Shown: in pieces, positions 40,101-64,000 of the stretch | Layout: the number at the start of each line of letters is the position of its first letter | Position numbering within the stretch: the stretch's first letter is position 1 | The notes under the pieces: generated by a model | What the model was told of the DNA's origin: nothing | Databases searched by the model: none | Seen by the model: only the letters and a program-made list of their open reading frames with translations | Source of the DNA: Vicinamibacteria bacterium | GTDB lineage: Bacteria > Acidobacteriota > Vicinamibacteria > Marinacidobacterales > Marinacidobacteraceae | Direction: 5' to 3' | Length of the DNA: 64,000 nucleotides | Assembly: GCA_963555995.3 (NCBI GenBank) | Contig: OY821641.1 | Coordinates: forward strand, 3,328,001 to 3,392,000 | Translations under genes and position numbers: made by a program

Positions 40101-43100
40101 CGCCCCCCGTCCCCGCGTGGATCAATACCCGAGAACCCGACCGCAAACCCGCGAACCGATACGCCAACTCCGCCGTCACGTACGCCACCGGCACCGTCGC
40201 CAGCTCCCCCGCCGTATGCCCCGCCGGCGCCAACGCCAACAACTCCGCCCGCGTCACCACCTCCGGTCCGAACGCGCCCGCCGCGAACCCCAGCACCCGC
40301 TCCCCGACCGACAAACCCGAAACCCCCGACCCCAACTCCACGACCCGACCGCACACCTCTCCGCCCAGCAGAAGCTCCTCCTCCAGAAGCCCCATCCCGA
40401 GCATCACGTCCAGGAAGTTCACCCCCGCCGCCTCCACCGCAACCCGGACCTCCCCCGCTCCCAGAGGAACCTCCGGAACCGACTCCGCCCGCAGCCCCGA
40501 CAACGATCCATCCGCATCCGGCGACAACCGCCAGCCGCCAGCCTCCGGCAACTCCACTCCCGGTCCCGAGCGCACCAGCCGGGGCACCAGCCGCCCGCCT
40601 CCCCGCAACGCAACCCGCGGCTCCCCGTCCGGCCACACCAACTCGTCCGCCAACCGCTCCGCCGTGAACGGACCCCCCGGGTCCACGTCCACCAGCCGGA
40701 CGTTCAGGTCCCGGTGCTCCAGGCCCGCCACCGCACCAAGACCCCACAGCGACGCACCCGACAGCGCGCCCCCCCGCTCCCCGCCCAACACCTGCCCCCC
40801 CCGCGTCACCAGCCACAGACCCGAGGCCGGCGCCGTCCCCGCGTCCGACATCCCCTGCAACAGACTCAGGGCGCTCCCCCCGATCTCCTCCAACTCCAGC
40901 GAAAGCTCCGAAACCGTCGCCCCCGCACTGTCTCCCCGAACCGCCGCCAGGTGCGCCACCCCACGCAACGGAGCGTCTCCCGCGAGCGACGCGAAGAACC
41001 GGCGCCAACCCTCCCGGTCCGCCGACCCCGAGGGACCGAACGACACTTCCTGGCCCCGACGCGAAAGCTCCCCCGCCAACTCCGCCGCCACCGCCCCTTC
41101 CCCCGACACCACGAACAGGCCCCGCTCCCCCGCAACCGCCGCCGGGCCCCGCGCCGCCAGCACCACCTGACCGCCCGCCTCGCCCACCAACGCAACCTCC
41201 CCATACCCCGACGCCGACAGCGCCCGCCCCCAATCCTCACGCCCCACCAGCGCGTAGTCCGACCGATACCCGTCCGCGAAACGCCACCAACCCGGAAGCA
41301 GTCCGAACGTCAGGTCCAGCCAACCCCGCCGCTCCGTCCCCTCCAGCAGCAACAACAACCCCGACGGCGCCAGCAACCGACGGCAGTGCGCCAGCGACTC
41401 CTCCAGGTCCCGCGTCGCGTGCAGCACGTTCGCCGCCACCACCACGTCGAAACCGTGCTCCCCGAACCCCTGCGCCAACGGGTCCCGCTCGATGTCCAGG
41501 ACCCGATACCGCACCTCCGCGCCCGCATCCCCGAAACGCCGCTCCGCCGACGACAGGAAACCCGCCGACACGTCCGTGAACTCGTACTCCGTCCGACCCG
41601 ACGGCAACGCCGCCAGCACCGCTCCCGTCGTCGCCCCCGTCCCCGCTCCCACCTCCAGGACCCGAAGGCGCCGGCCCTCCGGCAGACCCGCGACCGCCGC
41701 TCCCGCCGCCGCCCCCACCAGGCGGTTCAAAGCCCGCGCCCCCGGCGAACGCCAGTACAGCTCCGCCGCGCCCGCGCCCCCCTCCCCGAACAGCAACTCC
41801 ACCGCGTCCGCACGCCCCCGCAACACCTCCGACAGCGATCCACCGCAGCGCGCCAGAACCTCACCCTCCACCGAATCCCCACCCGCCCCCGGCGCCGAAA
41901 CCCCCGCCGGCAGCGGCTCCGCCGAGCCCACCGTCACCAGCCATTCCCCCGCAACGTCCCGCGCCAGCACACCCCCCTCCTCCAGCAGCGCCAGCAACCG
42001 ACCGAACAGCTTCCGGTGCTCCCCCGTCACTTTCAACCCACGACGCAACCCCTCCTCCGATACCCGGTCGCCCGATGACCGCTCCCAACCCAACTCCTCG
42101 AGCGCCCGCAGCGCATACCAGCGCGACTCCCGCTCCAGCGCCTCCCCCGCCGAAGCCAGCGCCCCCGCCTCCAACCCCTCCGCCGACAAGTACGCATCCA
42201 CCGAACCCACCGACGACGCCACCTGGGACGGTTCCACGAGGAACTCCGCCGAACGCAACCCCACCGGCGGCCCCGAGCGCCAATCCACCTCATACAGCAA
42301 CTCCCCGACCCCCACCCCCAGGACCGCCGAGCGGCCCGCCCGCTTCAACGTCAAACCCGATACCCCGCCCAACGCCTCCCCTCCCAAGCCATACAGCGCC
42401 AGGTCCCCCTTCCTCACCTCACCCGAGCCCCTCCCCTCACGCAGCCGCGCGTGGCACACCAGCCGTCCCGGAAGACGACCCCAAATCCACAGCCGCTCCC
42501 AGCCCCACGGTAGCCACACCTCCTCCCCCTCCAGGTCCCCCCACGCCCCCGACAGAACCTGGAAACACCCGTCCAGCAGCACCGGGTGCGCCAGCAGGCC
42601 CCCGCCCGACAACTCCACCGGCAGCGCCACCTCTCCCAGCGCCGCGCCCTCCCCCCGCCACAGCGCCCCCAGCGTCCGGAACGCCGGCCCGTAGGCGATC
42701 CCCACCGACGCCAGCCGACCATACAGCTCCGGGACCGCAGCCGGGCTCAACTCCCCGCGCAGCGCAGCGAGGTCCACCGCCTCCCCAACGCCGCCGCCGC
42801 CGGCCTCCCAGCGCCCCTCCGCGTGCAGCTCCCACGCCTCCCCAACGCTTCCCGCCCGGCTCGCCACCTCGAAGCCATCGTCACGTCCCGAAACCACCTG
42901 CACCGTCCGCGACGCGTCGCCCCGGAACACCAGCGGACGGCGGAACTGCACCTCCGGCAGCGCCACCCCGCCCGACTCCCCGTCATCCCTCCCCCGCTCC
43001 CCGAACGCCTCCAGCGCCTGCGACGCATACAGCGCTCCCGGCGCGAGCGCCTCCCCATACACCCGGTGCTCCCCCAGCCAGACCGGATCGCCCGCGCCCA

Positions 43101-46100
43101 TCTCCCGCTCCCACGAAACCTCGCCCCCGCGGGAGTCCCGCCGCTCCCCCAGCAGCGGGTGCACCGCCGACCGCCGCGCCTTCGCCCCCTCCACCCAGTA
43201 CCGCTCCCGCTGGAACGGATACGTCGGCAGCGATACCCGCCGGCGCGTCTCCCCGGGGAACAGACCCTCGAACGAAACGTCGAGCCCCGCCTCGTACGCC
43301 TCTCCCACCGCCCGAACCCAGCCCTCGCTCCCGCCTCCCGACGGAACCGACACCACCCGCAGACCCCCGTCCCCCGGCCACGCCGACGACGCCCGCTCGC
43401 CCAGCCCTCCCGACGGGCCAACCTCCACCAGCAGTCCCACTCCCAGACCCGACAGCGTCTCCAGCGCTCGCTCGAAGCGCACCTCTCCTTCCGTACCCCA
43501 GACGCCCGCCTCCGGCACTCCTTCCTCCACACGGCCGCTCGCGCCACGCACCAGCGGCACTTCCGGCGGCGACAGCGCCCCCTCGAATACACGACCCAGC
43601 GCCAGCCGCAGCCCGCCCTCCAGATCCAGCCCCCCCGACGCACACGCCGCCGCCAACTCCCCCGCTCCGCAACCCCAGACCACCCCCGGAACCACCCCCA
43701 CGCTCGCCCACAGCGCCGTCAGGCCCGCCTGCAGCGCATACCGCGCCGCCGCCGCCAACTCCGTGTCCTCCTCCGCCCCGGGCCAGGTCGCCGGCGGCAT
43801 GTACCCGTCCCCCAGCGCCGCTGTGCAGCGGTCCACCACCTCGCGGAACGCCGGCTCGCTCCCGTACAGCTCCCGCCCCAGACCCGACCACCCGCCGCTC
43901 TCTCCCCCGTAGAGGAACGCGACCTTCCCCGCCGACGACTCCCGACCCACGTCTCCCTCCGCCACCTGCCGCAGCCCCGCGCGCAGCGTGCCCTCGTCCC
44001 GGAACACCACCCCCGCGCGCCAACCGAAGTGGCTCCGCCCCACCCCCGCCGTCCACGCCGCGTCCGACAGCGACGCGTCCTCGCCCAACCACTCCCCATA
44101 CCGGCCCGCCAACTCCCGCAGCGCCCGCGCACTCCTCCCCGACAGCGGCAGCAGCCGCACCTCCCGCTCCCGGAGCGCCGGCGCCTCCGCCGGCGCCGCA
44201 ACCGCCGTCGCTTCCCCGGCCGGAGGCCGGAACTCTTCCACGATGACGTGCGCGTTCGTCCCCGAATAGCCGAACGAGCTCACCCCCGCTCGCCGCGGGC
44301 GGTCCGTCGCCGGCCAACCCGTCGCCTCCGACACCACCCGCACCGGCAACTCCGCCCACGGGATCCGCGGGTTCGGACGCTCGAAGTGCAGGTGCCGCGG
44401 GATTTCCCCCGAACCCAGCGCCAGCAGCACCTTGATCAGACCCGCAACCCCCGCCGCCCCCTCCAGGTGACCCACGTTCGTCTTCACCGAACCCAGCAGC
44501 AGCGGACGCTCCGGGTCCCGACCCTCCCGGTACGCCGACCCCGCCGCCACTACCTCCACCGGGTCTCCCAGCTCCGTCCCCGTCCCGTGCGCCTCCAGGT
44601 AGTCCACTTCCCACGGCTCCAACCCCGCACGCCCCAGCGCCTCCCCGATCACCCGCTCCTGCGCCGGGCCGTTCGGAACCGTCAAACCCGCGCTCGCCCC
44701 GTCCTGGTTCACCGCCGAGCCCAGCAACACCCCCAGCACCCGGTCCCCGTCACGCTCCGCATCCGACAAACGCTTCAGCACCACCATCCCGCACCCCTCG
44801 CCCCGCACGAACCCGTCCGCCGACGCGTCGAACGTCTTGCAGCATCCGTCCGACGCCAGCATCCCCGCGTCGGCGAACATCTCCGTCACTCCCGAGAGCA
44901 GGATCGCGTTCACTCCCCCCGCCAGCGCCAGGTCCGCCTCCCCCTGCAGCAGCCCCATCGCCGCCTGGTGCACCGCTACCAGCGACGACGAACACGCCGT
45001 GTCCACCGTGATCGCCGGACCCTCCAGACCCAGCGCGAACGAAACCCGTCCCACCGCCGTCGAGAACGACACTCCGCTACCCCGATAGAGACTCCGCGAG
45101 GGATCGCTGACACCCGCCACCAACTCCCGGTAGTCGTTGTTCATCATCCCCCCGTACACCCCGGCCCGGCTCCCCCGGAGGCCGCCCGGGTCCAGCCCCG
45201 CGTCCTCCAGCGCCGCCCAGCTCACCTCCAGCAGCAAGCGCTGCTGCGGGTCCAGCAACTCCGCCTCCGACGGCGCGATCCGGAAAAAACCCGCATCGAA
45301 TCGGTCCAGCCCCTCCACATACGCCCCATACGGACGCGCCGACTCCGTCTCCGCATCCACGTAGAGCCCATCCGGACGGCCCCGCGTCACCGCAAACCCC
45401 CCCGAACGCAGCAACTCCCCGAATCCCCTCAGGTCCGCACCCCCCGGAAAACGGCACGCCATCCCCACCACCGCAACCCGATCCGCTGCCGACGGACGCG
45501 CCACCAGACCCACCCGCCGGACCTCCGCCGCCGGCTCGCCCCACCCCAACGCACCCGCCAGGTGCCGCCCCAGACGCAACGCGTCCGGATGGTCGAACAC
45601 CGCCGTGTTCGACATCGTCAACACCCCGCCCAACGCCCGGTTCACCCGGTTCCGCAACTCCACCGCCATCAGCGAGTCCATCCCCAGCTCGAAGAAACCC
45701 GCATCCGCCGCCGGCCACGACCGCAGTCGCAGCACCGACGCCAGCTCCTCCCGCAAGAACTCCACCAGCGCCGTCTCGCGCTCCGCCGCCGGCAGCCCCC
45801 GCAGGCGCTCCCCCAGGTCCCCGCGCACCCCCCGCTCCTCCAACCCCTCCGCACGCACCAGCTCTTCCAGCAACGGCGGCGGCGACGACAGCGACGTCCA
45901 GTCCACCGACGCCGCAACGCTCCTCCCCACGTCCGCACGCACCAGCCGCGTCAGCGCCTCCAACCCGCGCTCCGGCGCCATCCACCCCTCCCCATACGCC
46001 GCGATCCGATCCGCGATCCGATCCCGCTGCTCCTCTGCCTCCCCCACGCCCGACCACGCCCCCCACGCGATCGCCTGACCCGCCAAACCACGCGAGCGCC

Positions 46101-49100
46101 GGTGCGCCGCCAACTGGTCCAGGAACGCATTCGCCGCCGCGTGGTTCGCCTGACCCGCGTTCCCGAACACCCCCGCCGCGCTCGAAAACAGCACGAACAG
46201 CTCCAGCTCCCGGTCCTCCGTCGCCCGGTGCAACCGCCACGCCCCCAGAACCTTCGGCCACAGCACCTCCTCGAAACGCCCCCAGTCCAGGTTCACCAGC
46301 GCCCCGTCCGACAGAACCCCCGCGCAGTGGATCACCCCTCCCAGCGCCGGCAGCTCCTCCTCCACCCGCCCCAGCATCGCCGTCACCGCATCCCCGTCCG
46401 TCACGTCCGCAATCTCCACCCGAACCTCCACCCCCCGACCCCGCAGGCTCTCCACCGCCGCTTCCGCCGCCGCATCCGGCGACCGGCGACCGTTCAGCAC
46501 CACCGCACCCGCACCCCGCTCGCCCAGCCAGCCCGCGACCGCCAGACCAATGCCCCCCAGGCCCCCCGTCACCAGGTAACTCCGGTCATTCCGCACCCGC
46601 GTCCCCGCCGACGCCGCCTCCGAACCCGCCGGAAGCCGCACCAGCCGCGGCACCCGCCGCTCGCCTCCCCGCAACGCAACCCGTGGCTCCCCGTCCGGCC
46701 ACACCAACTCGTCCGCCAACCGCTCCGCCGCGAACGGCCCCGCCGGGTCCACATCCACCAGCCGGACGTTCAGGTCCCGGTGCTCCAGCCCCGCCACCGC
46801 TCCCAGCCCCCACAGCGACGCGCCCGACAGCCCGCCCTCCTGCTCCCCGCCCAACACCTGTCCCCCCCGCGTCACCAGCCACAGACCCGAGGCCGGCGCC
46901 GTCCCCGCATCCGACATCCCCTGCAACAGACCCAATACCCCCGAACCCAACTCGCGCAGCCGCCGCTCCAACTCCTCCACCGTCGCCCCCGCCTCGTCTT
47001 CACCGACTCCCGAAACGTCCACCACCCCTCGCAACCGCTCCTTCCCATCCAGCTCCCCGAAGAACGACTCCCACGCTTCCCGCTCCCCGCCCGCCGGTCC
47101 GCGCCGGACCTCCTGGCCCCGACGCGAAAGCTCCTCCGCCAACTCCGCCGCCACCGCCCCTTCCCCCGACAGCACGAACAGGCCCCGCTCCCCCGCAACC
47201 TCCGCCGGACCCCGCGCCGCCAGCACCACCTGATCCCCCGCCTCCCCCACCAGCGCAACCTCCCCATACCCCGCCTCCGACAGCGCCCGGCTCCACGCCT
47301 CACGCCCCACCAGCGCGTAGTCCGACCGATACCCGTCCGCGAAACGCCACCAACCCGGAAGCAGTCCGAACGTCAGGTCCAGCCAGCCCCGCCGCTCCGT
47401 CCCCTCCAGCAGCAACAACAATCCCGACGGCGCCAGCAACCGACGGCAGTGCGCCAGCGACTCCTCCAGGTCCCGCGTCGCGTACAGCACGTTCGCCGCC
47501 ACCACCACGTCGAAACCGTGCTCCCCGAACCCCTGCGCCAACGGGTCCCGCTCGATGTCCAGGACCCGATACCTCACCTCCGCGCCCGACCCCCCGAAAC
47601 GCCGCTCCGCCGACGACAGGAAACCCGCCGACACGTCCGTGAACTCGTACTCCGTCCGACCCGACGGCAACTCCGCCAGCACCGCTCCCGTCGTCGCCCC
47701 CGTCCCCGCTCCCACCTCCAGGATCCGAAGACGCCGGCCCTCCGGCAGACCCGTGACCGCCGCCCCCACCGCCGCTCCCACCAGGCGGTTCAGCACCCGC
47801 GCCCCCGGTGACCGCCAATACAGCTCCGCCGCGCCCGCTCCCCCCTCACCGAACAGCAACTCCACCGCGTCCGCACGCCCCCGCAACACCTCCGACAGCC
47901 ATGCCCCGCAGCGCTCCAGAACCTCACCCTCCACCGAATCCCCACCCGCCCCCGGCGCCGAAACCCCCGCCGGCAGCGGCTCCGCCGAGCCCACCGTCAC
48001 CAGCCATTCCCCCGCTACGTCCCGCGCCAGCACACCCCCCTCCTCCAGCAGCGCCAGCAACCGACCGAACAGGCGCCCGTGCTCCCCCGTCACCTTCAAC
48101 GCACGACGCAACCCCTCCTCCGATACCCGGTCGCCCGATGACCGCTCCCAACCCAACTCCTCGAGCGCCCGCAGCGCATACCAGCGCGACTCCCGCTCCA
48201 GCGCCTCCCCCGCCGAAGCCAGCGCCCCCGCCTCCAACCCCTCCGCCGACAAGTACGCATCCACCGAACCCACCGACGACGCAACCTCCGACGGACCCTC
48301 CAGGAACTCCGCCGAACGCAACCCCACCGGCGGCCCCGAGCGCCAATCCACCTCATACAGCAACTCCCCGACCCCCACCCCCAGGAGCGCCGAGCGGCCC
48401 GCCCGCTTCAGCGTCAAACCCGATACCTCGCCCAACACCTCCCCACCCGCGCCATACAGCGCCAGGTCCGCCTTCCTCACCTCACCCGGTCCGCTCCCCT
48501 CCCGCAGCCGTGCGTGGCACCGCAGCCGGCCCGGGAGGCGACCACAAACCCACAGCCGCTCCCAGCCCCACGGAAGCCATACCTCCTCCCCCTCCAGATC
48601 CCCCCACGCCCCCGACAGAACCTGGAAACACCCGTCCAGAAGCACCGGGTGCGCCCGGAGGCCCTCCGCCGCCAGCGCCGGCGGCAGTGAAACCTCTCCC
48701 AACGCCTCGCCAACGCCTCGCCACAGCGCCCCCAGCGACCGGAACGCCGGGCCGTAGGCGAACCCGGCGGACGCCAGTCGCCCATACAGGTCCGGGACCG
48801 CGACCGGGCTCAACTTCTCGCGCAGCGCATCGAGCTCCGCCGCTTCCGCGCCGCCGCCGCCCGCGCCCCAGCGCCCCTCCGCGTGCAACTCCCAGGCCTC
48901 CCCTCCGACGCCCTCCCGGCTCGCTACCTCGAAGCTCTCACCTCCCGACACCACCTGCACCGTCCGGTACGCGTCGCCCCGGAACACCAGCGGCCGGCCG
49001 AATTGCACCTCCGTGACCGCCACCACTCCCGACTCCCCGTCCTCCCCAGCACGCTCCCCGAACGCCTCCAACGCCTGCGACGCATACAGCGCCCCCGGCG

Positions 49101-51636: not shown

Positions 51637-51700
51637 CGTCATCCTCGCTCAACGCGGCCAGGACTTCCGCCAGCAACTGCTCGTCGTCCTCGGTGGAGTC
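51550..51700 (-). other. Docking-domain pair at the gene A/gene B junction; the genes overlap by 14 bp
   Basis: Acidic C-terminus of A ([25 protein letters not shown]) and basic N-terminus of B (RDLTRRLVGQLKARKREIARLRE) directly before the KS. The stop of A (51623-51625) lies inside the first codons of B. Confidence 0.8.
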
Positions 51701-54700
51701 CAGGGGCCGTTCACCGCGGCTCCCCGAGCCCGGGTCGGCCCCGCCAACCCTCTCCAGTTGGTGCGCCAGATGCCGCGCGAGTTCCGTCGCGTCCGGGTAG
51801 TCCATCGTCACCGTGGTCGAGATCGGAATCACCCCGGCAAACCCGAGGTTCAGTCGGTTGCGGAATTCGACCGCCGTCAGTGAATCCATGCCCAGATCGA
51901 AGAAGCCCCTGGTGACGGCAGGCGTCGAGTCCAGACGCAGCACGTCCTGGATCTCCTCCAGGATGAACCCGCGAAGGATCTCCTCGACCTCGGAGGGAGG
52001 TACTCCGTGGAGCCGCGACATCAGTTCCCCGCCCGTCGCCGACGTCCGGACCGGACCGGTCAGATCCTCCAGCAGGGGTGCGGCTTCCACCGCCGCCCGG
52101 GGGCGCTCGGACCAATCCAACTGCGCCACCACGGTCGCCGCGGCATCCTCCCGCACCAGCCGGGAGAGAGCCTGCAGGCCCTGCGCGGGCGCGATCCATC
52201 CCGTCCCCGCCGCCGCCAGACCCTTGGCCAGCCGGTCCCGTCGCTCCGCCGCCTCTCCCACCTCGGACCACGCCCCCCACGCGATCGCCTGGCCCGGAAG
52301 ACCCGACGCGCGGCGGTGACGCGCCAACTGGTCGAGGAACGCGTTCGCGGCGGCATGGTTCGCCTGACCCGCGTTCCCCAGCACCCCCGCGGCGCTCGAA
52401 AACAGCACGAAGAGATCCAGATCCCGGTCCCTGGTCGCACGGTGAAGACACCACGCACCCAACACTTTCGGCCGCAACACGTCTGCGAACCGCTCCCAGT
52501 CCTGGTTCTCCAGTACCCCGTCGGACAGCGTTCCCACGCTGTGCAGCACGCCCCCGAGCGGCAGGATTTCCGCCTCCATCCGCGCGATCATCTCCGCAAC
52601 CGCCACCTCGTCGGTCACATCGCAGATCTCGACCCAGACCTCCACTCCCTGCTCCCGGAGCGTCGCGAGAGCCGCGGCCGCCTCCCCATCGGGTGGCCGC
52701 CGCCCGTTCAGCACCACGGCCCCCGCTCCCTGTTCCGCGAGCCAACCTGCCACTTTCAGCCCCACACCCCCGAGCCCGCCCGTCACCAGGTAGCTCCGAT
52801 CCCCTCGCAGACGACCCGTCGCCAGCGCCGACGGCGCGAGGACCACTTTCCCCCGGTGACGCGCGCGCCGCAGGTGTTCGAGCGCGGAACCGGCCTCCCG
52901 CAGCGGCCAGCGCGTGAACGGCAGCGGTTCGAGCGCCCTCGACTCCAGCCGCGCCAGCACCTGGCGCAGCGCCCGCGCCACCCCGGCCAGCTCCTCCCGC
53001 AGCAACCGGTCCAGTTCGAGAATGCGGTACTCCACGTCGGGCCGCACTTCCGCGATTGCCGGCGGGCTCCAGACTCCGCGCTTCGCCAACTCGACGAAGC
53101 GCCCTCCCGGCGCCAGGCAGGAAAGGCTGGCCTCGATGAATCCTTCGCCCGTCAGGCTGTTCAGCACCATGCTCACGCCTTTCCCGGCGGTCGCCTCCAG
53201 CAGGCCGTCCGCGAATCCGACATCCCTGCTGTCGAACGCTCCGGCGACCCCGAGCGAACGCAGGAAGTCCCGTTTCCCCGCGCTCGCGGTCCCGTAAACC
53301 CGCAGACCGGCCGCCCGCGCGCACTGAATGGCCGCCTGTCCCACTCCCCCGGTACCCGCGTGCACCAGCACGGAATCCCCGGCCTCCAGGCGCGCGAAAT
53401 CGAACGCCAGCACCGCCGTGACGAAGGCCACCGGCAGCGTGGCGAGCGCCGCTGACGAGAACCCCGCCGGCGCCGGCGCCAGCAGGTGCGCAGCCGTGAT
53501 GGTCTCCGGTGCGAGCGCCCCGGCGGCGAACCCCACGACACGGTCACCCACGGAGTACTCCGCCACCTCCGGACCCACCTCGACCACCCGTCCACACAGC
53601 TCGGCTCCGAGCGCCGGGACCGCGTCCACGAGGCCCAGTCCCAGCATCACATCCAGGAAATTCAGCCCGGCCGCGGCGACGGCGACCCGGACCTCCCCCG
53701 CCCCGAGCGGCGTCCGCGGCTGCGTCTCCACCCGCAATTCGTCGAGCCTGCCACCCGGACTCGGCGCGAACCGCCAGCCAGCGCCCTCCGGGATTTCCGT
53801 CCGCCCCCGCGACCGCCGGAGTCGAGCCACAAGCCGCTTTCCGCCACGCCACGCAGCGCGCGTCTCCCGGTCCGGAAACAGGAGTTCGTCCGCCACCGTC
53901 TCCGCCGGAAACAGGGTGTCCGGGTCGAGATCCAGTAGCCGCGGACGCAAATCCCCGTGCTCCAGATCCACGACACTCCCGAAACCCCAGAGCAGCGCCC
54001 CGGACAGCACCCCCGAAACCTCGCGCGCCAACACCTGGCCTCCCCGCGTCACGAACCAGGTCCCCGCGGAGGGCCGCACCCCCGCGTCCGCCATTCCCTG
54101 CACCAGCGACAGCGCGCTCGCTCCGACCGCTTCCACTTCCACCGCGAGTTCCGCCGGCGTCGTCTCCGCTCCGTCGCCCCGAACCCCCTCCAGGTGCGCC
54201 ACCCCCCGCAACGGGACCTGCGCCGGGAGCGACTCGAAGAACGTTCGCCAGGCCGTGCGGTCCGCCCCCCCGGGGCCGAGCGTCACCTGTTGCCGGCGCC
54301 GCTCCAGCGCGCGCCCGAGTTCCGCCGAAACCTCCCCGCCCCCCGCCAGCACGAACAGACCGAGCTCCCCGTCCACTTCCGCCGGAGCGCGCGCGAGGAT
54401 CACCGTCTGTCCCGAATCCTCGCCGAGGAAGGAAACGTCCCCGTAACCGGCGTCCGTCAGCGCCCGCCGCCAGACCTCGGCGCCCACGAGCGGATGGTCT
54501 CGCCGATACGCGTCGTCGAACCGCCACCACCCCGGGAGCAGGCCGAAGATGAGGTCCAACCAGCCCTGCGGTGCGGTCCCTTCCGCCGCCACCAACAGAC
54601 CCGAAGGCGCCAGCAGCCGGCGGCACTGATCCAGCGTTTCCGCGAGGTCCCGCGTCGCGTGCAGCACGTGCGCCGCAATCACCAGGTCATATCCATATCG

Positions 54701-57700
54701 ATCGACACCCTGCTCCCACGGATTCCGCTCGATGTCGAGCACCCGGTAACGGATCGCCGCCCCGCGCGCCCCGAAACGACGTTCGGCCGCGGCGAAGAAG
54801 CCGGCCGAAACATCCGTGAACTCGTAGTCCGTACGGCTTTCGGGTAAAGCTTCCAGCACGAATTCCGTCGTCGCCCCCGTTCCGGCGCCCACCTCAAGCG
54901 CTCGCAGGCGCCGGTCCGTCGGCAGTGTCGCAACGGCCGCCGAGACCGCATCCCCGAGCATCCGGTTCAGGGCCCGGCTCCCGGGCGACCGCCGATAGAG
55001 GTCGGCCGCGCCGGGCGCCGGTCCGAACAACAACTCCCGTGGATTTCGGCCTCCCCACAGGACCTGCGCCAGGGAAACACCGCACCGGCGCAACAACTCC
55101 TGTTCGATGGAGGTTGCCGCTTCCTTCGTTCCCCCCGGCAGCGGGTCGGCGGAGCCGTCCGTCACCTGCCAGCGGCCCGTCGCGTCCCGCCGCACCACTC
55201 CCGTTTCCTCGAGCAGGTGGAGCAGGCGGCCGAACAGCCGCCGATGGTCGCCGGTCACCTTCAGGCGCCGGCGCAACGCTTCCTCATCGAAACGATCACC
55301 CACACGCCGCTCCCACCCCAGTTCTTCCAGCGCCCGCAACGTGAACCAGCGGGCCTCCCGATCCAGCTCCGCGTGGCGCGCCGCGAGTCCCTCGGGGTCC
55401 AGCCCCTCCGCCGCCAGATACCGCTCCACCGGCTCGATTTTCGAGGCCACGACCGTCGGCGCCCCGAGGCACTCCGCCCCCAGCAGTCCCACGCCGGGCC
55501 CCTCGCGCCATTCGACTTCGTAGAACAGGTCCTCCAGCCGGGACCCGAGCAGCGTCGAACGGCTGGCGTGTTGCAGCGCCAACCCGCTGACCCCGCCGAG
55601 CACCTCGCCCGTCGGCGCGTAGAACGTGAAGTCCACCTGCCGCGTCTCCCGGTGCTCCTCGCGGACCCGCGCGCGGCAGAGCAGCCGCTCGGGAAGCGGG
55701 AGCGCCAGCCAGAGCCGCTCCCAACCGACCGGAATCCAGGCCTCACCGTGGTCGTAGCCCGGTTCCTCGGGGTCGAACGCGCCGGCGGCTACCTGGAAAC
55801 AACCGTCCAGCAACGCCGGATGCGCGGCAAGGGTCTCCCGGCCGGCGGCGGCTGGCAGTTCTACCGCCCCCACCGCCTCGCGGCGACCGACCCATAGTTC
55901 CGTGAGCGCGCGGAACGCCGCCCCGTAGGCGATGCCGTGGGATGCGAAACGCCCGTAGAGGTCGTCCAGGTCAAGGCGCCGCAATCCCTCCCGGAGCGCA
56001 AGGACATCGGCTGGATCCGCCGGTGGGCGGCGGTGGTTCCCGGCCCGTCCCTCCGCGTGCTGCACCCACGCGCCGTCATTCGCATCGCGACTCACCACCT
56101 CCAGGCGATTCTCGGCGTCCAGAACGACCTGTACCGTCCGTCCCTCCTCCCCGGACAGCACGAGGGGACGATGAATTCGCATCTCGGTCAGCGCGAGGGC
56201 CGCGTCCCGCCCCGTCTCCCGCAGCGCCTCCAGCGCCTGCGACGCGTAGAGCGCCGCCGGCGCCACCACCTCGCGATACACGCGGTGGTGCCCCAGCCAG
56301 GCTGGATCCGCTCCACTGAGTTGCGTTTCGAACGCAGTCTCCCCGCGGCGCGAATCCCAGCGCTCCCCGAGCAGCGGATGCCCCGCCCGGCGGCGCTTGC
56401 TCACCGTCAGCCAATGCCGCTTCCGCTGGAACGGATACGTCGGCAGCGACACCCGACGACGCTTTTCCCCGCTGAACAGGCCCCCGAACGAGACGTCGAG
56501 CCCCGCACCATACGCCTCCCCCACCGCCCGTACCCAGTCCTCGCTCCCGCCTCCCGCCGGAACCGACAGCAGCCGCAGGCCCCCGTCCCCCGGCCATGCC
56601 GACGACGCCCGCGCCCCCACCCCCCCCGACGGACCCACCTCCACCAGCAGACCCACTCCCAGACCCGACAGCGTCTCCAGCGCCCGCTCGAAACGCACCT
56701 CACCGCCCGCCTCCGAACCCCAACTTGCCGCGTCCGGAACCCCTTCCTCCAGCCGACCGCTCGCGCCACGCACCAGCGGCGCCCCCGGCGGCGACAGTTC
56801 CCCCTCCCAATCGCGCCCCGTCGCCAGCCGCAGCCCGCCCTCCAGATCCACCACCCCCGACGCGCACGCCGCCGCCAGCTCTCCCGCCCCACAACCCCAG
56901 ACCACCCCCGGAACCACCCCCACGCTCTCCCACAGCGCCGTCAGCCCCACCTGCAGCGCATACCGCGGCGCCGCCTCCTCCTCGTCTCCCTCCGCCCCTG
57001 TCCAGGCCGCCAGCGGCGGTCCCTCGTCTCCCAGGGTCGCCGCGCAGCGGTCCACCACCTCGCGGAACGCCGGCTCGCTCCCATAGAGCGCCCGCCCCAG
57101 GCCGGACCACCCCCCGTCCGCTCCCCCGTAGAGGAACGCAACCTTCCCGGCCAGCGGCTCCCTGGCCGCGCCCGCAGCGCCGGCCTCCACCTTCCGAAGC
57201 CCCGCGCGCAGCGTTCCCTCGTCCCGGAACACCACCCCCGCCCGCCAACCGAAGTGGCTCCGGCCCACCCCCGCCGTCCACGCCGCATCCGCCAGCGGCG
57301 CGCCCTCCGTCAGCCACTCCCCATACCGGCCCGCCAACTCCGAAAGCGCCCCCGCGCTCTTCCCCGACAGCGGCAGCAACCGCCAACCGCGCTGCGTGAA
57401 CCGCGCGCCATCCTCCTCCCCCTTCGAACCTCCCTCGTAGCCTTCCACGATCAGGTGCGCGTTCGTCCCCGAGAACCCGAACGAACTCACCCCCGCTCGC
57501 CGCGGGCGTTCCACCGACGGCCACCCCACCGCCTCCGACACCACCTGCACCGGCAGCTCCCCCCACGGGATCCGCGGGTTCGGGCGCTCGAAGTGCAGGT
57601 GCCGCGGGATCTCCTCCGAGCCCAGCGCCAGCAGCACCTTGATCAGGCCCGCGACCCCCGCCGCCCCCTCCAGGTGCCCCACGTTCGTCTTCACCGACCC

Positions 57701-60700
57701 CACCAGCAGCGGACGCTCCGCCTCCCGCCCCTCCCCGTACACCGACGCCGCCGCCGCCACCTCCACCGGGTCCCCCAGCTCCGTTCCCGTCCCGTGCGCC
57801 TCCAGATAGTCCACTTCCGACCCCGCGATCCCAGCACGCCCCAGCGCCTCTCCGATCACCCGCTCCTGCGCGGGGCCGTTCGGTACCGTCAGCCCCGCGC
57901 TCGCCCCGTCCTGGTTCACCGCCGAACCCAGGATCACCCCCAGGATCCGGTCCCCCGACGCCTCCGCGTCCGACAACCGTTTCAGCACCACCATCCCGCA
58001 CCCCTCACCCCGCACGTAACCGTCCGCCGACGCATCGAACGCCTTGCACCGTCCGTCCGGCGCCAGCATCCCCCCGTCGGCGAACATCCCCGTCACTTCC
58101 GAAGTCAGGATCGCGTTCACCCCTCCCGCCAGCGCCAGGTCCGCCTCGCCCTGAAGCAGCGCCATCGCCGCCTGGTGCACCGCCACCAGCGACGACGAGC
58201 ACGCGGTGTCCACCGTGAGCGCCGGACCCTCCAGACCCAGCGCGAACGAAATCCGCCCGACCGCCGTCGAAGCGGTCCCCCCGGTGGCCCGGTAGAAATT
58301 CCGGGCGGCGTCCACTCCCGCCGCCGCCAGCGCCTGGTACTCGTTTCCGCACACGCCCCCGTACACGCCCGTCCGGCTCCCGCGCAAACCCCCGGGATCC
58401 AACCCCGCATCCTCCAGCGCCGCCCAGCTCACCTCCAGCAGCAACCGCTGCTGCGGATCCAGCAACTCCGCTTCGACCGGCGCGATTCGGAAGAAGTCCG
58501 CGTCGAAACGGTCCAGATCCGCCACGTACGCGCCGAACGGACGCGCCGCCTCGGTCTCCGCGTCCACGAACAGCCCGTCCGGACGGCCCCGCGTCACCGC
58601 GTGCCTTCCCGCGGCCAGCAAGTCCCGGAATCCTTCCAGATCCCAACCTCCCGGGAACCGGCACGCCATCCCCACCACCGCAACCCGGTCCTGCCGTGGC
58701 GCCACCACCGCCAGCGGCGCACCCGCATCGAGTGTTTCGGGCAGGCCCCGCCCGAACCGCCCGGCCAGATGCCGGGCCAGCCGTCCGGCATCGGGATGAT
58801 CGAAGACCGCCGTGTTCGAAACCACCAGCTCCCCACCCAGCGCCCGGTTCAAACGGTTCCTGATCTCCACGGCCATGAGGCTGTCCATGCCCAGCTCGAA
58901 GAACCCCGTCTCCGGCGACGGCGGCGACGGCAGGCGCAGCAAGGCGGCCAGCTCACGCTGAAGGAATCGGAGCACCTCCGCCTCCCGATCGCGCGGGGCG
59001 AGGCCGCGCAGCCGGTCCGCCAGCAGCCCCGCCACCCGCTCGGCCCGCGCGTCGTCCCTCCCCACGAGTTCCTCCAGGAACGGGGAAGGCGAGGACAGCG
59101 CCGTCCAGTCCACCGATGCCGCCACCCTCGCCGCACCGTCGTCCCGGACCAGCCGCGAGAGCACCCGCAGCCCGCGTTCCGGCGCGATCCATCCCTCGCC
59201 AAGCCCCGGAGTCCGCTCCCGCCGCTCCGCGGCTTTCCCAACTTCCGACCACGCCCCCCACGCGACCGCCTGCCCCGGCAGACCCAACGACCGCCGGTGG
59301 AGCGCGAGCTGGTCCAGAAACGCGTTCGCCGCCGCGTAGTTCGCCTGTCCGGGGTTGCCCAGCACTCCCGCCAGACTCGAGAACAACACGAAGAACTCCA
59401 GCTCCCGGTCGCGGGTCGCCTGGTGAAGATGCCAACCGCCCAGTACCTTGGGCCCCAACACCTCCTGAAAGCGACCCCAGTCCTGGTTGGCGAGCGCCCC
59501 GTCCACGATCCTCCCCGCGGCATGGATCACCCCCCCGAGGGGCAGGGCCTCCGATTCCAGTCGCCGCAGCATCCCGTCCACCGCCGCCTCGTCCGCCACG
59601 TCCGCGATCTCGACCCGAATCGCGGCGCCCCGCTCGCGTAAGGCCTCGACGGCCGTCGCCGCACGCGCATTCGGGGTCCGCCGGCCGTTCAGCACGACCA
59701 GTCCGGCCCCCCGGTCCGCCAGCCAGCCCGCCACTTCGAGCCCGATTCCCCCGAGGCCCCCGGTCACCAGGTAGCTCCGGTCCTGCCGCAGGCGCCCCGC
59801 CGTCGCGGGCGGCCCCGCCGGGCTCGCCGCCCGCACGAGACGCGCCACCCGCCGCTGCCCGCCGCGCCAGGCGATCCGCGTCTCCCGATCGGGGAACACG
59901 AGTTCATCCGCCAGGGTCGCTACCGGAGGCGCCGCTTCGGGATCCAGATCCAACAGCCGCGGCCTCAGATCTCCGTACTCCAGGTCCACCACACTCCCCA
60001 GACCCCACAGAGTCGCGCCCGACAGGGCTCCCGCGACCTCCCCCTCCACCACCTGCGCACCGCGGGTTACGAACCACAAGCCCGCGGCGGGACGCACCGC
60101 CGCGTCGGCAAGCCCCTGGACCAGAGCCAACGCCCCCGATCCGACGGACGCCAGTTCGGCGGCAAGGGCTGACGCGCCGCACCCGGACTCATCCTCCCGG
60201 ACCGCCTCCAGATACGCCACCCCGGCGAGCGGGACGTCGCCGGAGAGCGACTCGAACAGCTTTCGCCACGCGTCCCGCCGCCCGGGCGACGGCCCCGTCA
60301 CGACCCGTTGCCCGCGCCGGTTCAGCTCCGCCGAGAGTTCCGCCGAGAACTCCCCGCCCCCCGCCAACACGAACAGGCCGGACACCGGATCCACCTCGGA
60401 GTGCGGAACCTCCTCCGCGGCGCGCCGGTCCGCCGCCACCACCTCCGGCTCCGCAAGGGACGCCGCCGAGAGAAGCCCCACGGGCGGACCGCGGCGCCAC
60501 TCGACTTCGTACAGCAGCTCCTCCACCGACGAACCCAGGAGCGCGGCCCGGCTCGCGCGCTTCAACGCGAATCCGGTCACCCCGCCCAGCGGGGTCCCTG
60601 CCGCGGTGTAAAACGCCAGATTCGCTCGCCACGTCTCGGCCGCGCCCTGCCGGAGCCGCCCATGGCAGAAGACCCGTTCCGGCAGCGGACCCCGGACCCA

Positions 60701-63700
60701 CAGTCGCTCCCATCCGAGCGGAAGCCAGATACCAGCCCCCTCCTCCGCGCCGGCAACACCACCGAGCGCCTGGAAACATCCGTCCAGCAGCGCCGGATGC
60801 GCCCAGAGACCCTCACGCCGCAACTCCGGCGGCAGCGCCACCTCGCCGAGCGCCTCCCCCCCTCCCGACCACAACCCCGCCAGCACCCGGAACGCCGGGC
60901 CGAGTTCGATGCCGGCCCCCGCCAACCGACCGTAGAAGTCTCCCGTCGCCATCGGCTCCAGCCGGTTCCGGAGCGCCGCCAGGTCCACGCCTTCCAAGGC
61001 CTCGACTCCCGCGTCCAGGCTTCCCTCCGCGTGGATCTTCCACGCCCCGCTCCCTCCGGACTCGCGACTCACGACCTCGAAACGGTCCCGGGAGCCCAGC
61101 ACCACCTGCGCCGTCCGGCTCGCTCCCACCGGCAACACCAGCGGACGGTGGATCTGGAAGTCGGTGAGGGTCACCCCCTCATCCCATCCACCAGCCGGGA
61201 CCACCTCCCGGAAGGCTTCCAGCGCCTGCGCGGCGTAGAGCGCTCCCGGCGCCACCACCTCCCCGAACACCCGATGGTCCCCGAGCCACGGCGGATCCTG
61301 TCCTTCCAACTCGGTTTCGAACGAGACCACGCCGTCCCGCGCATCCCGGCGAACTCCCAGCAGGGGCAGACCCGCGGCCGGGCGGGGGCGCTTCGAAACC
61401 TCCACCCAGTGCCGCTCCCGCTGGAAGGGATACGTCGGCAGCGACACCCGGCGACGGCGCTCCCCCGCGAAGAGGCCCGCGAACCGGACGTCCAGCCCCG
61501 CTTCGTACGCCCTCGCCACCGCCGCGACGTAGTCCCCGCTTCCGCCCCGGGTCAGGCTCGCAACCACCGCCGGCGCCTCCTCGCCCGGCCACGCCAGCGA
61601 CGCCAGCGGACCCAGCACGCCGTGGGGGCCGATCTCGACCAACACCCCCACCCCGAGCCCGGCGAGCGTTTCCACCGCCGTCCCGAATCGCACCGGCTCG
61701 CGCGCCTGACGACGCCAGTACGCCCCCTCCGGCGCGTCCGGAAGAACCCGGCCACTCACTCCTCCCAGCAGCGGAACCTCCGGCACCAGCGCCGGAAGCT
61801 CTCCCGCCGCCGCTTCCAGGTCCTCCAGAACCGGGTCCATCAACGCGCTCTGGAACGCATGGCTCGTCCGCAGAACCTCCACCCTTACGCCGCGCTTCCC
61901 CAACCGACGACAAAGGGACTTCACCAGCCGCCGCGGGCCGCTGACCACCACGTGCGCCCCGTTCTCCGCCGCCAGCGACAACCCCGGCCCCTGCACCCGC
62001 ACGTTCGTCTTCCGCAGCTCCTTCTCCAGCTCCGCAACTGGCGTGAAAACCGCCGCCATCGCTCCCCCGGGCGGCAGCGAACCCATCAACTCCCCCCGAC
62101 GCAGAGCAAACCGCAAACCCTCCTCGCACCCGAACACGCCGGCCGTCGACGCCGCCGCCAATTCTCCCGCGCTGTGGCCGAACACCGCCGCCGGACGAAC
62201 ACCGACACCCGCCCACAACGCCGTCAGCCCGCTCTGCAGCGCATAGAGCGCCGGCTGCGTCCATTCCATCCGGTCGAGGCCCCCCACATCACCGAACAGA
62301 ACCGGCAGCAGCGACTCCCCCCGCTCCTCGCGCACCACCGCCTCCGAGCGGTCCAGCACCTCCCGGAACACCGGCTCGTCTTCGTACAACTCCCGCCCCA
62401 TCCCCGCCCACTGGCTCCCCTGGCCGGTGTACAGGAACGCGACCTTCCCGCCCCGGAACACCGCCGTCTCTCCCTGTTCCACGGCCTCCAACTGCTCGCG
62501 CAGCGACGCCACGTCACGGAACACCAATCCTGCCCGGCGCCCGAAGTGGCTCCGCCCAACCCCCGCCGTCCACGCCATGTCCGCGAGCGGCGACTGCGCC
62601 GTCAGAAAGCCGAGATAACGGTGGGCGAGGTCGGAGAGCGCACCTTCCGTCTTCCCGGAGAGGGGGAGGACGCGGTGAGCGCGTTCCGGGCGGCGTGTTT
62701 CGTCCGCGTCCGGCGGACGCCCCCGACCGGGAGAACGGGGCCGACCAGAGGGCGGAGCGCCAGGCACCCGTACCTCCCGCCATTCCGCCTTCGTTTCCTC
62801 CCGTTCTTCCACATACCCCTCCAGGAGCACATGCGCGTTCGTCCCCGAATAGCCGAACGAACTCACCGCCGCCCGACGCCCACGATCCGCCGCCTCCGGC
62901 CACGTCTCACCCTCCGATACCACCCGAACCGGAAGCGAATCCCACGCGATCCGAGGGTTCGGACGTTCGAAATGCAGGTGCGGCGGGATCCAACCCTCCC
63001 GGAGCGCCAGCACCGCCTTCATCAGTCCCGCAACCCCCGCCGCCCCCTCCAGATGACCGATGTTCGTCTTCACCGTGCCCAACAACAGCGGGCGCGCCGG
63101 GTCCCGGCCCTTCCCATACACCCCGGCCGCCGCCTCCACCTCGATCGGATCTCCCAGCTCCGTCCCCGCCCCGTGCGCCTCCAGATAGTCCACTGTCGAA
63201 GGCTCGATCCCCGCCCGCGCCAACGCCGTTCCGATCACCTCCTCCTGCGCGGGGCCGTTCGGCACCGTCAGCCCCGCGCTGGCTCCGTCCTGATTCACCG
63301 CCGAACCCAGCAGCACCGCCAACACCCGGTCCCCGTCCCGCTCCGCCTCCGACAACCGTTTCAACACCACCATCCCGCAACCCTCTCCCCGCACGTACCC
63401 GTCCGCCGAAGCGTCGAACGTCTTGCACCGACCGTCCGCCGCCAACATCCGCGCGTCCGTAAACACCCGGGTCGGCTCCGAAGTCAGGATCGCGTTCACC
63501 CCGCCCGCCAGCGCCAGGTCCGCCTCGCCCTGGCGTAACGCCGCCGCCGCCTGGTGCACCGCCACCAGCGACGACGAACACGCCGTATCCACCGTGATCG
63601 CCGGTCCCCGGAGACCCAGCGCGAACGACACCCGGCCCACCGCCGTGGAAGCCGTCACCCCCGTCGCCCGATACAGGTTGCTGGAACTCTCGCCCCGCGA

Positions 63701-64000
63701 TCCGGCCAACATCAACTGGTAGTCGCTGCCACACACTCCCCCATAGACCCCCGTGCGGCTCCCCCGGAGACTCCCCGGGGCCAGCCCCGCGTCCTCCAGA
63801 GCCGCCCAACTCACCTCCAGCAACAACCGTTGCTGCGGGTCCAGCAACTCCGCCTCCACCGGCGCGATCCGGAAGAACTCCGCATCGAAGCGGTCCAGCC
63901 CCTCCACGTACCCCCCGAACGAACGCGCGGCCTCCGTCTCCGCGTCCACGAACAACCCGTCCGGACGACCCTCGGTCACCGCATCCAGCCCCGAACGGAG
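51623..64000 (-). CDS. Modular type I PKS (gene A), 5'-truncated by the window; last two modules plus C-terminal docking domain
   Basis: ORF-track 4118-aa protein. Its 'start' at 63979 is an internal GTG inside a KS, since the frame continues [13 protein letters not shown] to the window edge. Motifs: DTACSSS x2, [36 protein letters not shown], TGGLGGxG x2, LGMDSL x2. TGA at 51625-51623. Confidence 0.97.
51642..51650 (-). promoter_or_regulatory. Putative ribosome-binding site of gene B (GAGCGAGGA), within the 3' end of gene A
   Basis: The minus strand reads GAGCGAGG-ATGACG-ATGGCG, placing GAGG 6 nt upstream of the ATG at 51636. Confidence 0.55.
51750..58690 (-). other. PKS module A2: KS-AT0-DH-cMT-ER-KR(His)-ACP
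   Basis: [24 protein letters not shown]; AT remnant VWGCGAGEL; [12 protein letters not shown]; [13 protein letters not shown] and HVLHAT; [12 protein letters not shown]; [11 protein letters not shown]; [12 protein letters not shown]. Confidence 0.92.
58750..64000 (-). other. PKS module A1: KS-AT(full length)-DH-KR-ACP, no MT or ER
   Basis: KS DTACSSS / EAHGAGT / GHLEGAAG; AT GQGSQW, GHSAG (Ser 62171-62173), RRGELM, HAFQS; [12 protein letters not shown] and [10 protein letters not shown]; [19 protein letters not shown]; [12 protein letters not shown]. Confidence 0.92.

What the first reader, a model, noticed from the sequence alone, without database searches (positions are those of the whole stretch)
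61470..62450. The only full-length AT has HAFQ instead of HAFH and an unusually basic small-subdomain helix
Seen: the A1 AT keeps GQGSQW, GHSAG and RRGELM, but the motif reads [11 protein letters not shown] (CAG at 61852-61850) and the preceding helix reads [22 protein letters not shown] (~61945-61880). Established: the second His of HAFH is the catalytic base (FabD His201), and this helix is usually Ala/Glu/Asp-rich in cis-ATs. Inference, two alternatives: (a) a 'master' AT whose polybasic surface recruits the many acidic downstream ACPs or AT0 platforms, with a modified catalytic dyad; (b) an AT at an earlier stage of decay than the others. The same module's KS has EAHGAGT rather than EAHGTGT.
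Basis: partly seen in the sequence, partly recalled or inferred. Interest (0 to 1): 0.72.

Follow-up and report, generated by a model that had tools for sequence, protein, structure and literature searches.

The report
Giant PKS losing its last acyltransferase
In a sponge-type bacterium, a 106-kb lipid/polyketide assembly line has lost the catalytic serine (or the whole domain) in 18 of its 19 built-in loading enzymes, and the 19th carries a read-supported His-to-Gln change that likely cripples it, so the line would have to be loaded by an outside enzyme, which would be a natural step from built-in to external loading.

Summary
The sequence reading is right. GQGSQ, GHSAG, RRG, the Arg/Lys-rich helix and HAFQ (CAG at 61852-61850) are all present, and four public runs carry the same codon. 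The basic helix is an inherited subfamily trait: it occurs in 45 of 401 Ser-His relatives and in 4 of 17 Ser-less ones. The cluster's ACPs are neutral, not acidic. Ser plus Gln occurs in 0 of 418 relatives; the only other HAFQ is in a decayed Ser-less AT. In the genome, this is module 8 of a two-gene, 19-KS Sup/SA1-like PKS. Two further full-length ATs lie upstream and keep His but lack Ser, so this AT is the only Ser-bearing one, not the only full-length one. All 17 extending KSs and all 18 ACPs look intact, and the cluster has no stand-alone AT gene. Most likely this is the last cis-AT, now crippled, in a line loaded from outside (FabD or SupA's AT). Other Sup-like PKSs show independent AT loss. 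An active Ser/Gln master AT (0.17) and a recently dead cluster (0.2) remain open. The scan found only single-module Sup clusters before.

The parts
61415..62452 (-). Full-length AT of module A8 (346 aa with post-AT linker); the only AT of the 19-KS cluster with the catalytic Ser
   Evidence: AlphaFold model pLDDT 95.3, Foldseek TM 0.87-0.90 to cis-AT structures
62171..62173 (-). Catalytic Ser codon (GHSAG, Ser94 of the domain)
   Evidence: sequence
62096..62098 (-). Malonyl-binding Arg (RRG, Arg119)
   Evidence: sequence; invariant in 76-row alignment
61892..61933 (-). Arg/Lys-rich small-subdomain helix (residues 174-187); inherited subfamily trait
61850..61852 (-). CAG (Gln201) in place of the catalytic His of HAFH
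63161..63181 (-). EAHGAGT motif of KS A8 (His kept; Thr to Ala)
   Evidence: HGAGT in 2 of 362 KS contexts, this one included
58685..64000 (-). Module A8 (KS-AT-DH-KR-ACP); begins about 66 bases beyond the window's end
51623..64000 (-). 3' part of PKS gene A (15,870 aa in the genome, G000:C1:3379623-3427235, 9 KS)
1..51642 (-). 5' part of PKS gene B (19,619 aa in the genome, 10 KS, ends in a Sup-type KS-AT0 tail)
56429..57145 (-). AT remnant of module A9 (Ser to Gly, small subdomain deleted)
49270..49983 (-). AT remnant B1 (GCGAG, no small subdomain)
43213..43920 (-). AT remnant B2
36232..36903 (-). AT remnant B3 (identical in protein to B6)
30148..30861 (-). AT remnant B4
23152..23841 (-). 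AT remnant B5
16186..16857 (-). AT remnant B6
9154..9876 (-). AT remnant B7
3100..3813 (-). AT remnant B8

Best explanation
This is the last serine-bearing acyltransferase of a 19-KS Sup/SA1-like assembly line; the His201Gln change is real and likely cripples it, so the line is probably loaded with malonyl units from outside, most likely by the cell's FabD or by the AT of the separate SupA gene. Shown: the other 18 AT positions lost the Ser (2 full-length, 15 truncated including the Sup-type tail) or nearly the whole domain (1). The KS, ACP and reading frames stay intact, and no stand-alone AT gene other than fabD is in the genome. Inferred: (1) without the His base the Ser is poorly activated and the acyl-enzyme poorly turned over; (2) the AT-less module type was duplicated many times after losing its AT, so some outside loading must have been possible; (3) module A8 is an old module outside that expansion, kept a working AT longest, and has now lost it by one base change; (4) the basic helix was inherited from the AT subfamily and has no special role here. 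The product would be a long, methyl-branched, partly reduced lipid-like chain (inferred from MT/ER/DH/KR content and family).
For: His present in 401 of 401 distinct Ser-bearing Sup-like ATs. The only other HAFQ is in a Ser-less, heavily decayed loading AT (L215). An exact [HY]A[FS]Q[ST] search over all held sequences found none beside a Ser. Ser-His is the catalytic dyad (PMC6954729, passages; bioRxiv 10.1101/2020.05.15.098798, passages), and His201Asn abolished activity of the AT-fold hydrolase PksD (PMC11775670, passages). 17 of 17 extending KSs keep Cys and both His, 18 ACPs keep Ser, and the two frames run 35,489 codons without a stop. Paralogue dN/dS is below 1 in all domains (KS 0.33, KR 0.32, ACP 0.41, DH 0.43, AT 0.50). 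The truncated ATs of A4-A6, A9 and B1-B8 form one clade with identical pairs, and a 92%-identical orthologue of gene B from another assembly has the same three truncated ATs (P0123). PF00698 finds only fabD as a free AT, and FabD and the SupA AT keep Ser, Arg and His. Internal AT loss recurs in other Sup-like PKSs: 16 of 90 internal ATs in 8 of 35 multi-module proteins, by Ser-to-Gly change, partial deletion or total deletion. One Ser-less internal AT is kept in 8 of 8 near-identical proteins covering it. Engineered AT-null cis modules can be complemented in trans (PMC7327777, passage).
Against: Outside the catalytic motifs this AT is not clearly decayed. It has 6 changes at conserved columns, against a median of 3 in live ATs (26 of 180 have 6 or more) and 9 in Ser-less ones. 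It has 13 versus 16 derived changes against its 81%-identical intact relative, and its profile score is above the live median, though that score is biased toward the query. Its small subdomain is 85% identical to an intact relative, against 62-71% for A2 and A7. One contig of another study (X6, 89% alike, depth 5.4) appears by subtraction of depths not to have CAC at this codon. CAT codes this His in only 5 of 83 relatives, so the Gln may be shared and older than 'just lost'. No expression, product or activity data exist. dN/dS is distorted by high GC at third positions and reflects the past. No other complete cluster without any live AT was found; most of the partial ones seen include a live AT (P0247 and P0123 do not, but are fragments).
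Confidence: 0.55

Rival explanations
1. The whole 106-kb cluster has recently stopped working. A8's AT was the single 'master' AT on which all modules depended, the His-to-Gln change killed it, and the rest has not yet had time to decay.
For: Only Ser-bearing AT of the cluster, with a well-kept scaffold. Other clusters pair a live AT with dead or deleted ones (P0134/P0126, P0128, P0153, P0372, P0252 group). The same module also has the rare HGAGT (2 of 362).
Against: No stop or frameshift in 35,489 codons and no lesion in 17 KS triads. The allele is the only one assembled in up to 3 samples. The X6 contig hints that the Gln is shared with a relative about 11% diverged, which would be hard to square with a dead but intact cluster.
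Confidence: 0.2
2. The AT is still active with a Ser/Gln active site and acts as an embedded master AT that loads the other modules' ACPs in trans.
For: Keeps GQGSQ, Ser and Arg while all 18 others lost them. No rate acceleration. The FabD small subdomain does bind ACP through basic residues (bioRxiv 10.1101/2020.05.15.098798, passages). A short ACP window around the Ser is weakly more acidic in basic-helix modules (rho -0.22, n=88, rows not independent). The X6 hint of a shared Gln.
Against: 0 of 401 Ser-bearing relatives replace the His. An AT carrying 17 modules should be the least likely to fix this change. The helix is in fully cis clusters and in Ser-less ATs. In the P0128/P0153/P0372 and P0252 groups, live ATs beside dead ones often have a neutral helix. 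Cluster ACPs are neutral, and whole-ACP charge correlates the wrong way (rho +0.26).
Confidence: 0.17
3. The domain was repurposed, for example as a non-catalytic ACP or CoA-binding platform, or module A8 is a non-extending relay module (HGAGT KS plus HAFQ AT).
For: Two unusual motifs in one module; scaffold retained.
Against: KS A8 keeps Cys and both His, and its DH, KR (Tyr) and ACP motifs are intact. AT-fold hydrolases also need the His (PMC11775670, passage).
Confidence: 0.06
4. The CAG codon is a sequencing or assembly error and the AT is an ordinary HAFH domain.
For: CAC to CAG is a single base.
Against: Identical, unbroken contigs across the codon in 4 of 4 runs. Homologous contigs with CAC in the same runs differ at many other places and are other loci or organisms.
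Confidence: 0.02

Closest known systems
SA1_PKS of the Discodermia dissoluta symbiont (SA1_PKSB, AAY00026.1, held as P0255) and other multimodular Sup-like PKSs
   Same: Giant repetitive KS-AT-DH-(MT)-(ER)-KR-ACP modules with HAFH-type ATs; SA1_PKSB's scored ATs are 54-57% identical to this AT. The G018 cluster has the same KS0 start, KS-AT0 end and a neighbouring alpha/beta-hydrolase.
   Different: SA1_PKSB's 3 internal ATs were all scored intact. G018's 10 extending ATs keep HAFH and 8 of 8 scored keep Ser. The 27-30 kaa synthases of other sponge-type genomes show full-length AT matches at regular module spacing (Ser not checked for all). Here none of 19 positions has a Ser-His pair. The original SA1 paper could not be read.
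SupA (sponge symbiont ubiquitous PKS)
   Same: Same domain set and the KS-AT0 tail; proposed source of mid-chain-branched fatty acids (PMC4245539, passages). This genome has its own SupA-type gene about 58 kb away with an intact AT.
   Different: SupA is monomodular with one live AT and a dead AT only in the tail; here dead ATs fill the extending modules.
trans-AT PKSs
   Same: Modules without a working AT that keep KS-AT linker remnants (PMC11775670, passage); loading would have to come from outside the module.
   Different: No dedicated AT gene in the cluster. The KSs were compared only with Sup-like cis-AT KSs, to which KS A8 is about 81% identical. The remnants keep most of the AT large subdomain, at several stages of loss.
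cis-AT PKSs with a few inactive or missing ATs (enacyloxin, conglobatin, aureothin, kirromycin; recalled, not confirmed by any search)
   Same: AT-dead modules inside a cis-AT-type line, thought to be loaded by another AT.
   Different: As recalled, these keep canonical Ser-His ATs in the cluster; this one keeps none.
E. coli FabD / FAS MAT catalytic dyad
   Same: Same fold, Ser and Arg; an Arg 11 residues before the His position, as FabD Arg190 (placed by residue count; inference).
   Different: Gln in place of His201/His683.

Membership tests
Catalytically competent malonyl-CoA:ACP acyltransferase | GHSxG nucleophile Ser | tested here: met
   GHSAG
Catalytically competent malonyl-CoA:ACP acyltransferase | Carboxylate-binding Arg and GQG motif | tested here: met
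   RRG, GQGSQ
Catalytically competent malonyl-CoA:ACP acyltransferase | His of the xAFH/YASH motif | tested here: not met
   Gln; His in 401 of 401 Ser-bearing relatives
Catalytically competent malonyl-CoA:ACP acyltransferase | Two-subdomain fold | tested here: met
   model pLDDT 95.3, TM 0.87-0.90 to solved ATs
Catalytically competent malonyl-CoA:ACP acyltransferase | Measured transacylation | not testable with these tools
   needs assay
Multimodular Sup/SA1-like PKS | KS-AT-DH-MT-ER-KR-ACP modules, KS0 start, KS-AT0 tail, adjacent alpha/beta-hydrolase | tested here: met
   same layout in G018
Multimodular Sup/SA1-like PKS | Working AT in each extending module | tested here: not met
   0 of 17 extending modules has Ser plus His
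Multimodular Sup/SA1-like PKS | Methyl-branched lipid product | not testable with these tools
   proposed for Sup only (PMC4245539)
trans-AT PKS | Extending modules lack a working AT | tested here: met
   16 of 17 lack Ser, the 17th lacks His
trans-AT PKS | Stand-alone AT encoded in the cluster | tested here: not met
   only fabD, 2.4 Mb away
trans-AT PKS | KS domains of the trans-AT clade | not tested
   tree held no trans-AT KS; nearest relatives are Sup-like cis-AT KSs
Embedded 'master' AT | Basic helix specific to clusters with AT-less modules | tested here: not met
   8 of 10 ATs of fully cis G018; 4 of 17 Ser-less ATs
Embedded 'master' AT | Acidic partner ACPs | tested here: not met
   median net charge 0 of 18 ACPs
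Embedded 'master' AT | Sole Ser-bearing AT with a maintained scaffold | tested here: met
Embedded 'master' AT | Gln conserved in orthologues | tested here: inconclusive
   no orthologous protein found; X6 contig hint unresolved

The most novel reading that the evidence does not exclude
One embedded acyltransferase with a Ser/Gln active site and no histidine base loads all 17 extending modules of a 35,000-residue assembly line: a single-AT, in-between state of cis- and trans-AT synthases that sponge-symbiont PKSs have reached several times independently.
Probability: 0.17. Interest if true: 0.85.

Novelty: new variant of a known kind. Interest (0 to 1): 0.5.

Why it matters
How assembly lines without built-in acyltransferases arise is a standing question. 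This cluster and its relatives show every stage in one family: intact, Ser-to-Gly, small subdomain deleted, whole AT deleted, and here loss of the last His. That makes the cis-to-external-loading transition testable with a few purified domains. If the line runs on FabD or on SupA's AT, it is a 17-module system with no AT of its own. If the Gln enzyme works, it changes the rule that this His is required. The HAFQ motif and basic helix alone are of modest interest; the helix is ordinary for its subfamily.

Tried and rejected
Sequencing error: rejected. Basic helix as a master-AT adaptation: rejected. Acidic ACPs: rejected. Recent import of module A8 from a foreign cis-AT cluster: not supported; its KS, DH, KR and ACP are no closer to any foreign protein held than to own modules, though the AT alone is closest to P0243. 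A dedicated trans-AT gene: not found with PF00698 in a 93%-complete assembly. An orthologue of gene A: not found. The protein searches covered 607-2000, 2268-7219 and 5500-17500 residues, listed 120 hits each and returned nothing above about 8,000 residues. No RNA holder listed, so there is no evidence on expression either way. X5 held only a small share (a 151-base, depth-2 contig) and was not used. A single-sequence fold was useless (pLDDT 33.7). The AT tree is the quick version (careful search unfinished); the trees are FastTree only. No electrostatic surface was computed, since no tool returned coordinates; charges are residue counts. No complex prediction was run (enzyme with carrier). 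Ten literature searches found no report of mass AT loss in Sup-like PKSs or of a natural HAFQ AT. Schirmer 2005, Fieseler 2007 and Kosol 2019 were not held, and most subscription papers are not searched, so absence from print is not shown. No supplements were read.

Full report
Observation. The minus strand at 62452-61415 encodes a 346-residue acyltransferase with GQGSQ, GHSAG, RRG, the helix [21 protein letters not shown] and TSHAFQS; the Gln codon is CAG at 61852-61850. The KS of the same module reads EAHGAGT. With an alignment of 76 sequences the domain folds at pLDDT 95.3, with residues 174-186 helical, and matches solved cis-AT domains at TM 0.87-0.90. Four public runs, at most three samples of one study and possibly including the source, each give one contig across the codon with no other letter. 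The codon is real.

Context. The window is part of two giant ORFs. In the genome, gene A is 15,870 aa and gene B 19,619 aa, together 106 kb with 19 KS domains. The finding is module 8 of gene A, not module 1. Aligning 17 AT positions, and reading the first and last directly, gives this picture. A1 has almost no AT left. A2 and A7 are full-length with HAFH but Gly for Ser. A3-A6, A9 and B1-B9 (14) lack both the Ser and the small subdomain. B10 is the Sup-type dead tail. A8 alone has Ser. All 17 extending KSs keep Cys and both His, 18 ACPs keep Ser, and there is no stop in 35,489 codons. PF00698 finds six full-length ATs in the genome: A2, A7, A8, the SupA-type gene 58 kb away, a second small PKS, and fabD, the only free-standing one. 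FabD and the SupA AT are intact. The flanks hold an alpha/beta-hydrolase, an RND-type transporter, a ferredoxin-like protein and inositol-phosphate synthase, but no AT (7 flanking proteins scanned). Named relatives are sponge-type MAGs of Acidobacteriota, Gemmatimonadota, Chloroflexota and others.

The Gln. Among 418 distinct full-length Sup-like ATs at 50% identity or more (own genome left out; kin and paralogues are not independent), 401 have Ser and His, 16 Gly and His, 1 Gly and Gln, and none Ser and Gln. The one other HAFQ is a heavily decayed loading AT in G015. A wider motif scan of 1,408 GHSxGE contexts auto-scored 1,321 as His. It left 87 unscored, which by eye are His variants, insertions, truncations or non-AT hits, and it found no Ser-bearing HAFQ. 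The Ser-His pair is the catalytic dyad in FAS MAT and FabD (PMC6954729 and bioRxiv 10.1101/2020.05.15.098798, passages). An amide at this position (His201Asn) abolished activity in the AT-fold hydrolase PksD (PMC11775670, passage). I found no paper testing His-to-Gln in an AT. That the change cripples the enzyme is therefore an inference.

The helix. Its net charge of +8 is high, since 306 of 401 Ser-bearing relatives are at or below 0. But 45 of 401 are at +4 or more, and so are 4 of 17 Ser-less ATs. In G018, a complete three-gene cluster of the same layout, 8 of 10 extending ATs have it and all 10 keep HAFH. The nearest relative, P0243 (81%), has the helix with His. The cluster's 18 ACPs have median net charge 0. 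Across 88 other modules whole-ACP charge rises with helix charge (rho +0.26), while a short window round the Ser falls weakly (rho -0.22); neither test is independent. By residue count the FabD ACP/CoA-contacting Arg190 corresponds to the Arg of GVR just after the helix, which most relatives share (inference). The helix is inherited, not a master-AT adaptation.

History. The truncated ATs of A4-A6, A9 and B1-B8 form one clade with identical pairs, so AT-less modules were duplicated after the loss. A 92%-identical orthologue of gene B from another assembly has the same three truncated ATs in the part held (P0123). Paralogue dN/dS is 0.32-0.50 in all domains, with the caveat of high GC3. KS A8 falls outside the cluster's own KS expansion, and no closer foreign donor is held. 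The A8 AT scaffold is not clearly decayed: 6 changes at conserved non-catalytic columns (live median 3, 26 of 180 at 6 or more; Ser-less median 9 of 18, five of them strain copies), and 13 versus 16 derived changes against P0243. It thus stayed under selection far longer than the other ATs. One hint bears on the age of the Gln. In run X6, of another study, contigs with CAC account for 944.9 of 950.3 depth at the codon, and the remainder equals one 89%-alike contig of depth 5.4. CAT is used for this His in 5 of 83 relatives. That contig may share the Gln, but the table was cut and its letter was not shown.

The family. AT loss is not unique to this genome. In 35 multi-module Sup-like proteins, 16 of 90 internal ATs in 8 proteins are dead by motif. 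The routes are Ser-to-Gly (P0126, P0247, P0252), deletions with other breakpoints (P0134) and complete removal leaving only the linkers (P0128, P0153; also P0372). In the P0252 group a Ser-less middle AT is kept in 8 of 8 proteins that cover it, and the third AT is Ser in 8 of 9. Most of these partial clusters include a live AT, with basic or neutral helix. SA1_PKSB and the 27-30 kaa synthases in complete genomes show full-length ATs throughout.

Mechanism. Most likely (0.55) the cluster has moved to outside loading and A8 is the last cis-AT to go; FabD or SupA's AT would supply malonyl. Shown: motif states, intact KS/ACP/frames, no dedicated AT gene, expansion after AT loss. Inferred: loss of activity, identity of the loader, present function. 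An AT carrying 17 modules would be the least likely to fix a change at an invariant catalytic residue, which counts against an active Ser/Gln master (0.17). A master AT that has just died, leaving a silent but undecayed cluster, is possible (0.2). Engineered AT-null cis modules accept trans complementation (PMC7327777, passage); natural cis-AT lines with a few dead ATs are recalled, not confirmed here.

Verdict. The helix is ordinary for its subfamily. The Gln is best read as the last step in cluster-wide AT loss. The cluster is a new variant of the Sup/SA1-like PKSs that would work like a trans-AT system but fails that family's test of a dedicated AT gene. Ten searches of the open library found no description of it, with key papers unavailable. 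Interest 0.5.

Noticed in passing
G000:C1:3379623-3427235, gene A residues about 600-810: The loading module's AT is almost wholly deleted and its ACP reads LGMQSL; relatives have a loading AT with GHSAG and ISEASHC/S here.
   Followed up: partly
window 1-57500 (KR domains of MT-bearing modules): KR motif reads GQANHAAAN (His for Tyr) in most MT-containing modules and in SupA, but YAAAN in MT-less modules.
   Followed up: no
gene A residues 3433-3800 versus 5794-6400; window 36232-36903 versus 16186-16857: Protein-identical KS and AT-remnant pairs (A4/A5; B3/B6, and B3/B5/B6 KS) point to very recent duplication or gene conversion.
   Followed up: partly
P0128, P0153, P0372: Sup-like modules with the AT removed completely, leaving the KS-AT linker joined to the post-AT linker, next to a live AT: the closest look to a true trans-AT module.
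   Followed up: partly
P0252 and P0353-P0360: A Ser-less internal AT fixed across 8 near-identical proteins, and a second AT that is Ser-to-Gly in 1 of 9, suggesting ongoing loss or an error in that one record.
   Followed up: partly
G401:C1:1981286-2062843 and 3102562-3184101: One genome holds two separate single-ORF synthases of about 27,700 codons each; others reach 29,700 (G464, G465).
   Followed up: no
G000:C1:3252668-3262744: SupA-type gene with intact AT (GHSVG, TTRAFHS) and an adjacent alpha/beta-hydrolase, 58 kb from the giant cluster.
   Followed up: partly
G000:C1:1353334-1361538: A further small type I PKS (EAHATGT, GHSSG), resembling the swf type by its HATGT motif (PMC3908369 passage).
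   Followed up: no
L206 (G248:C1:455001-475000): An internal AT with GHSVG but a truncated small subdomain beside two intact ones.
   Followed up: no
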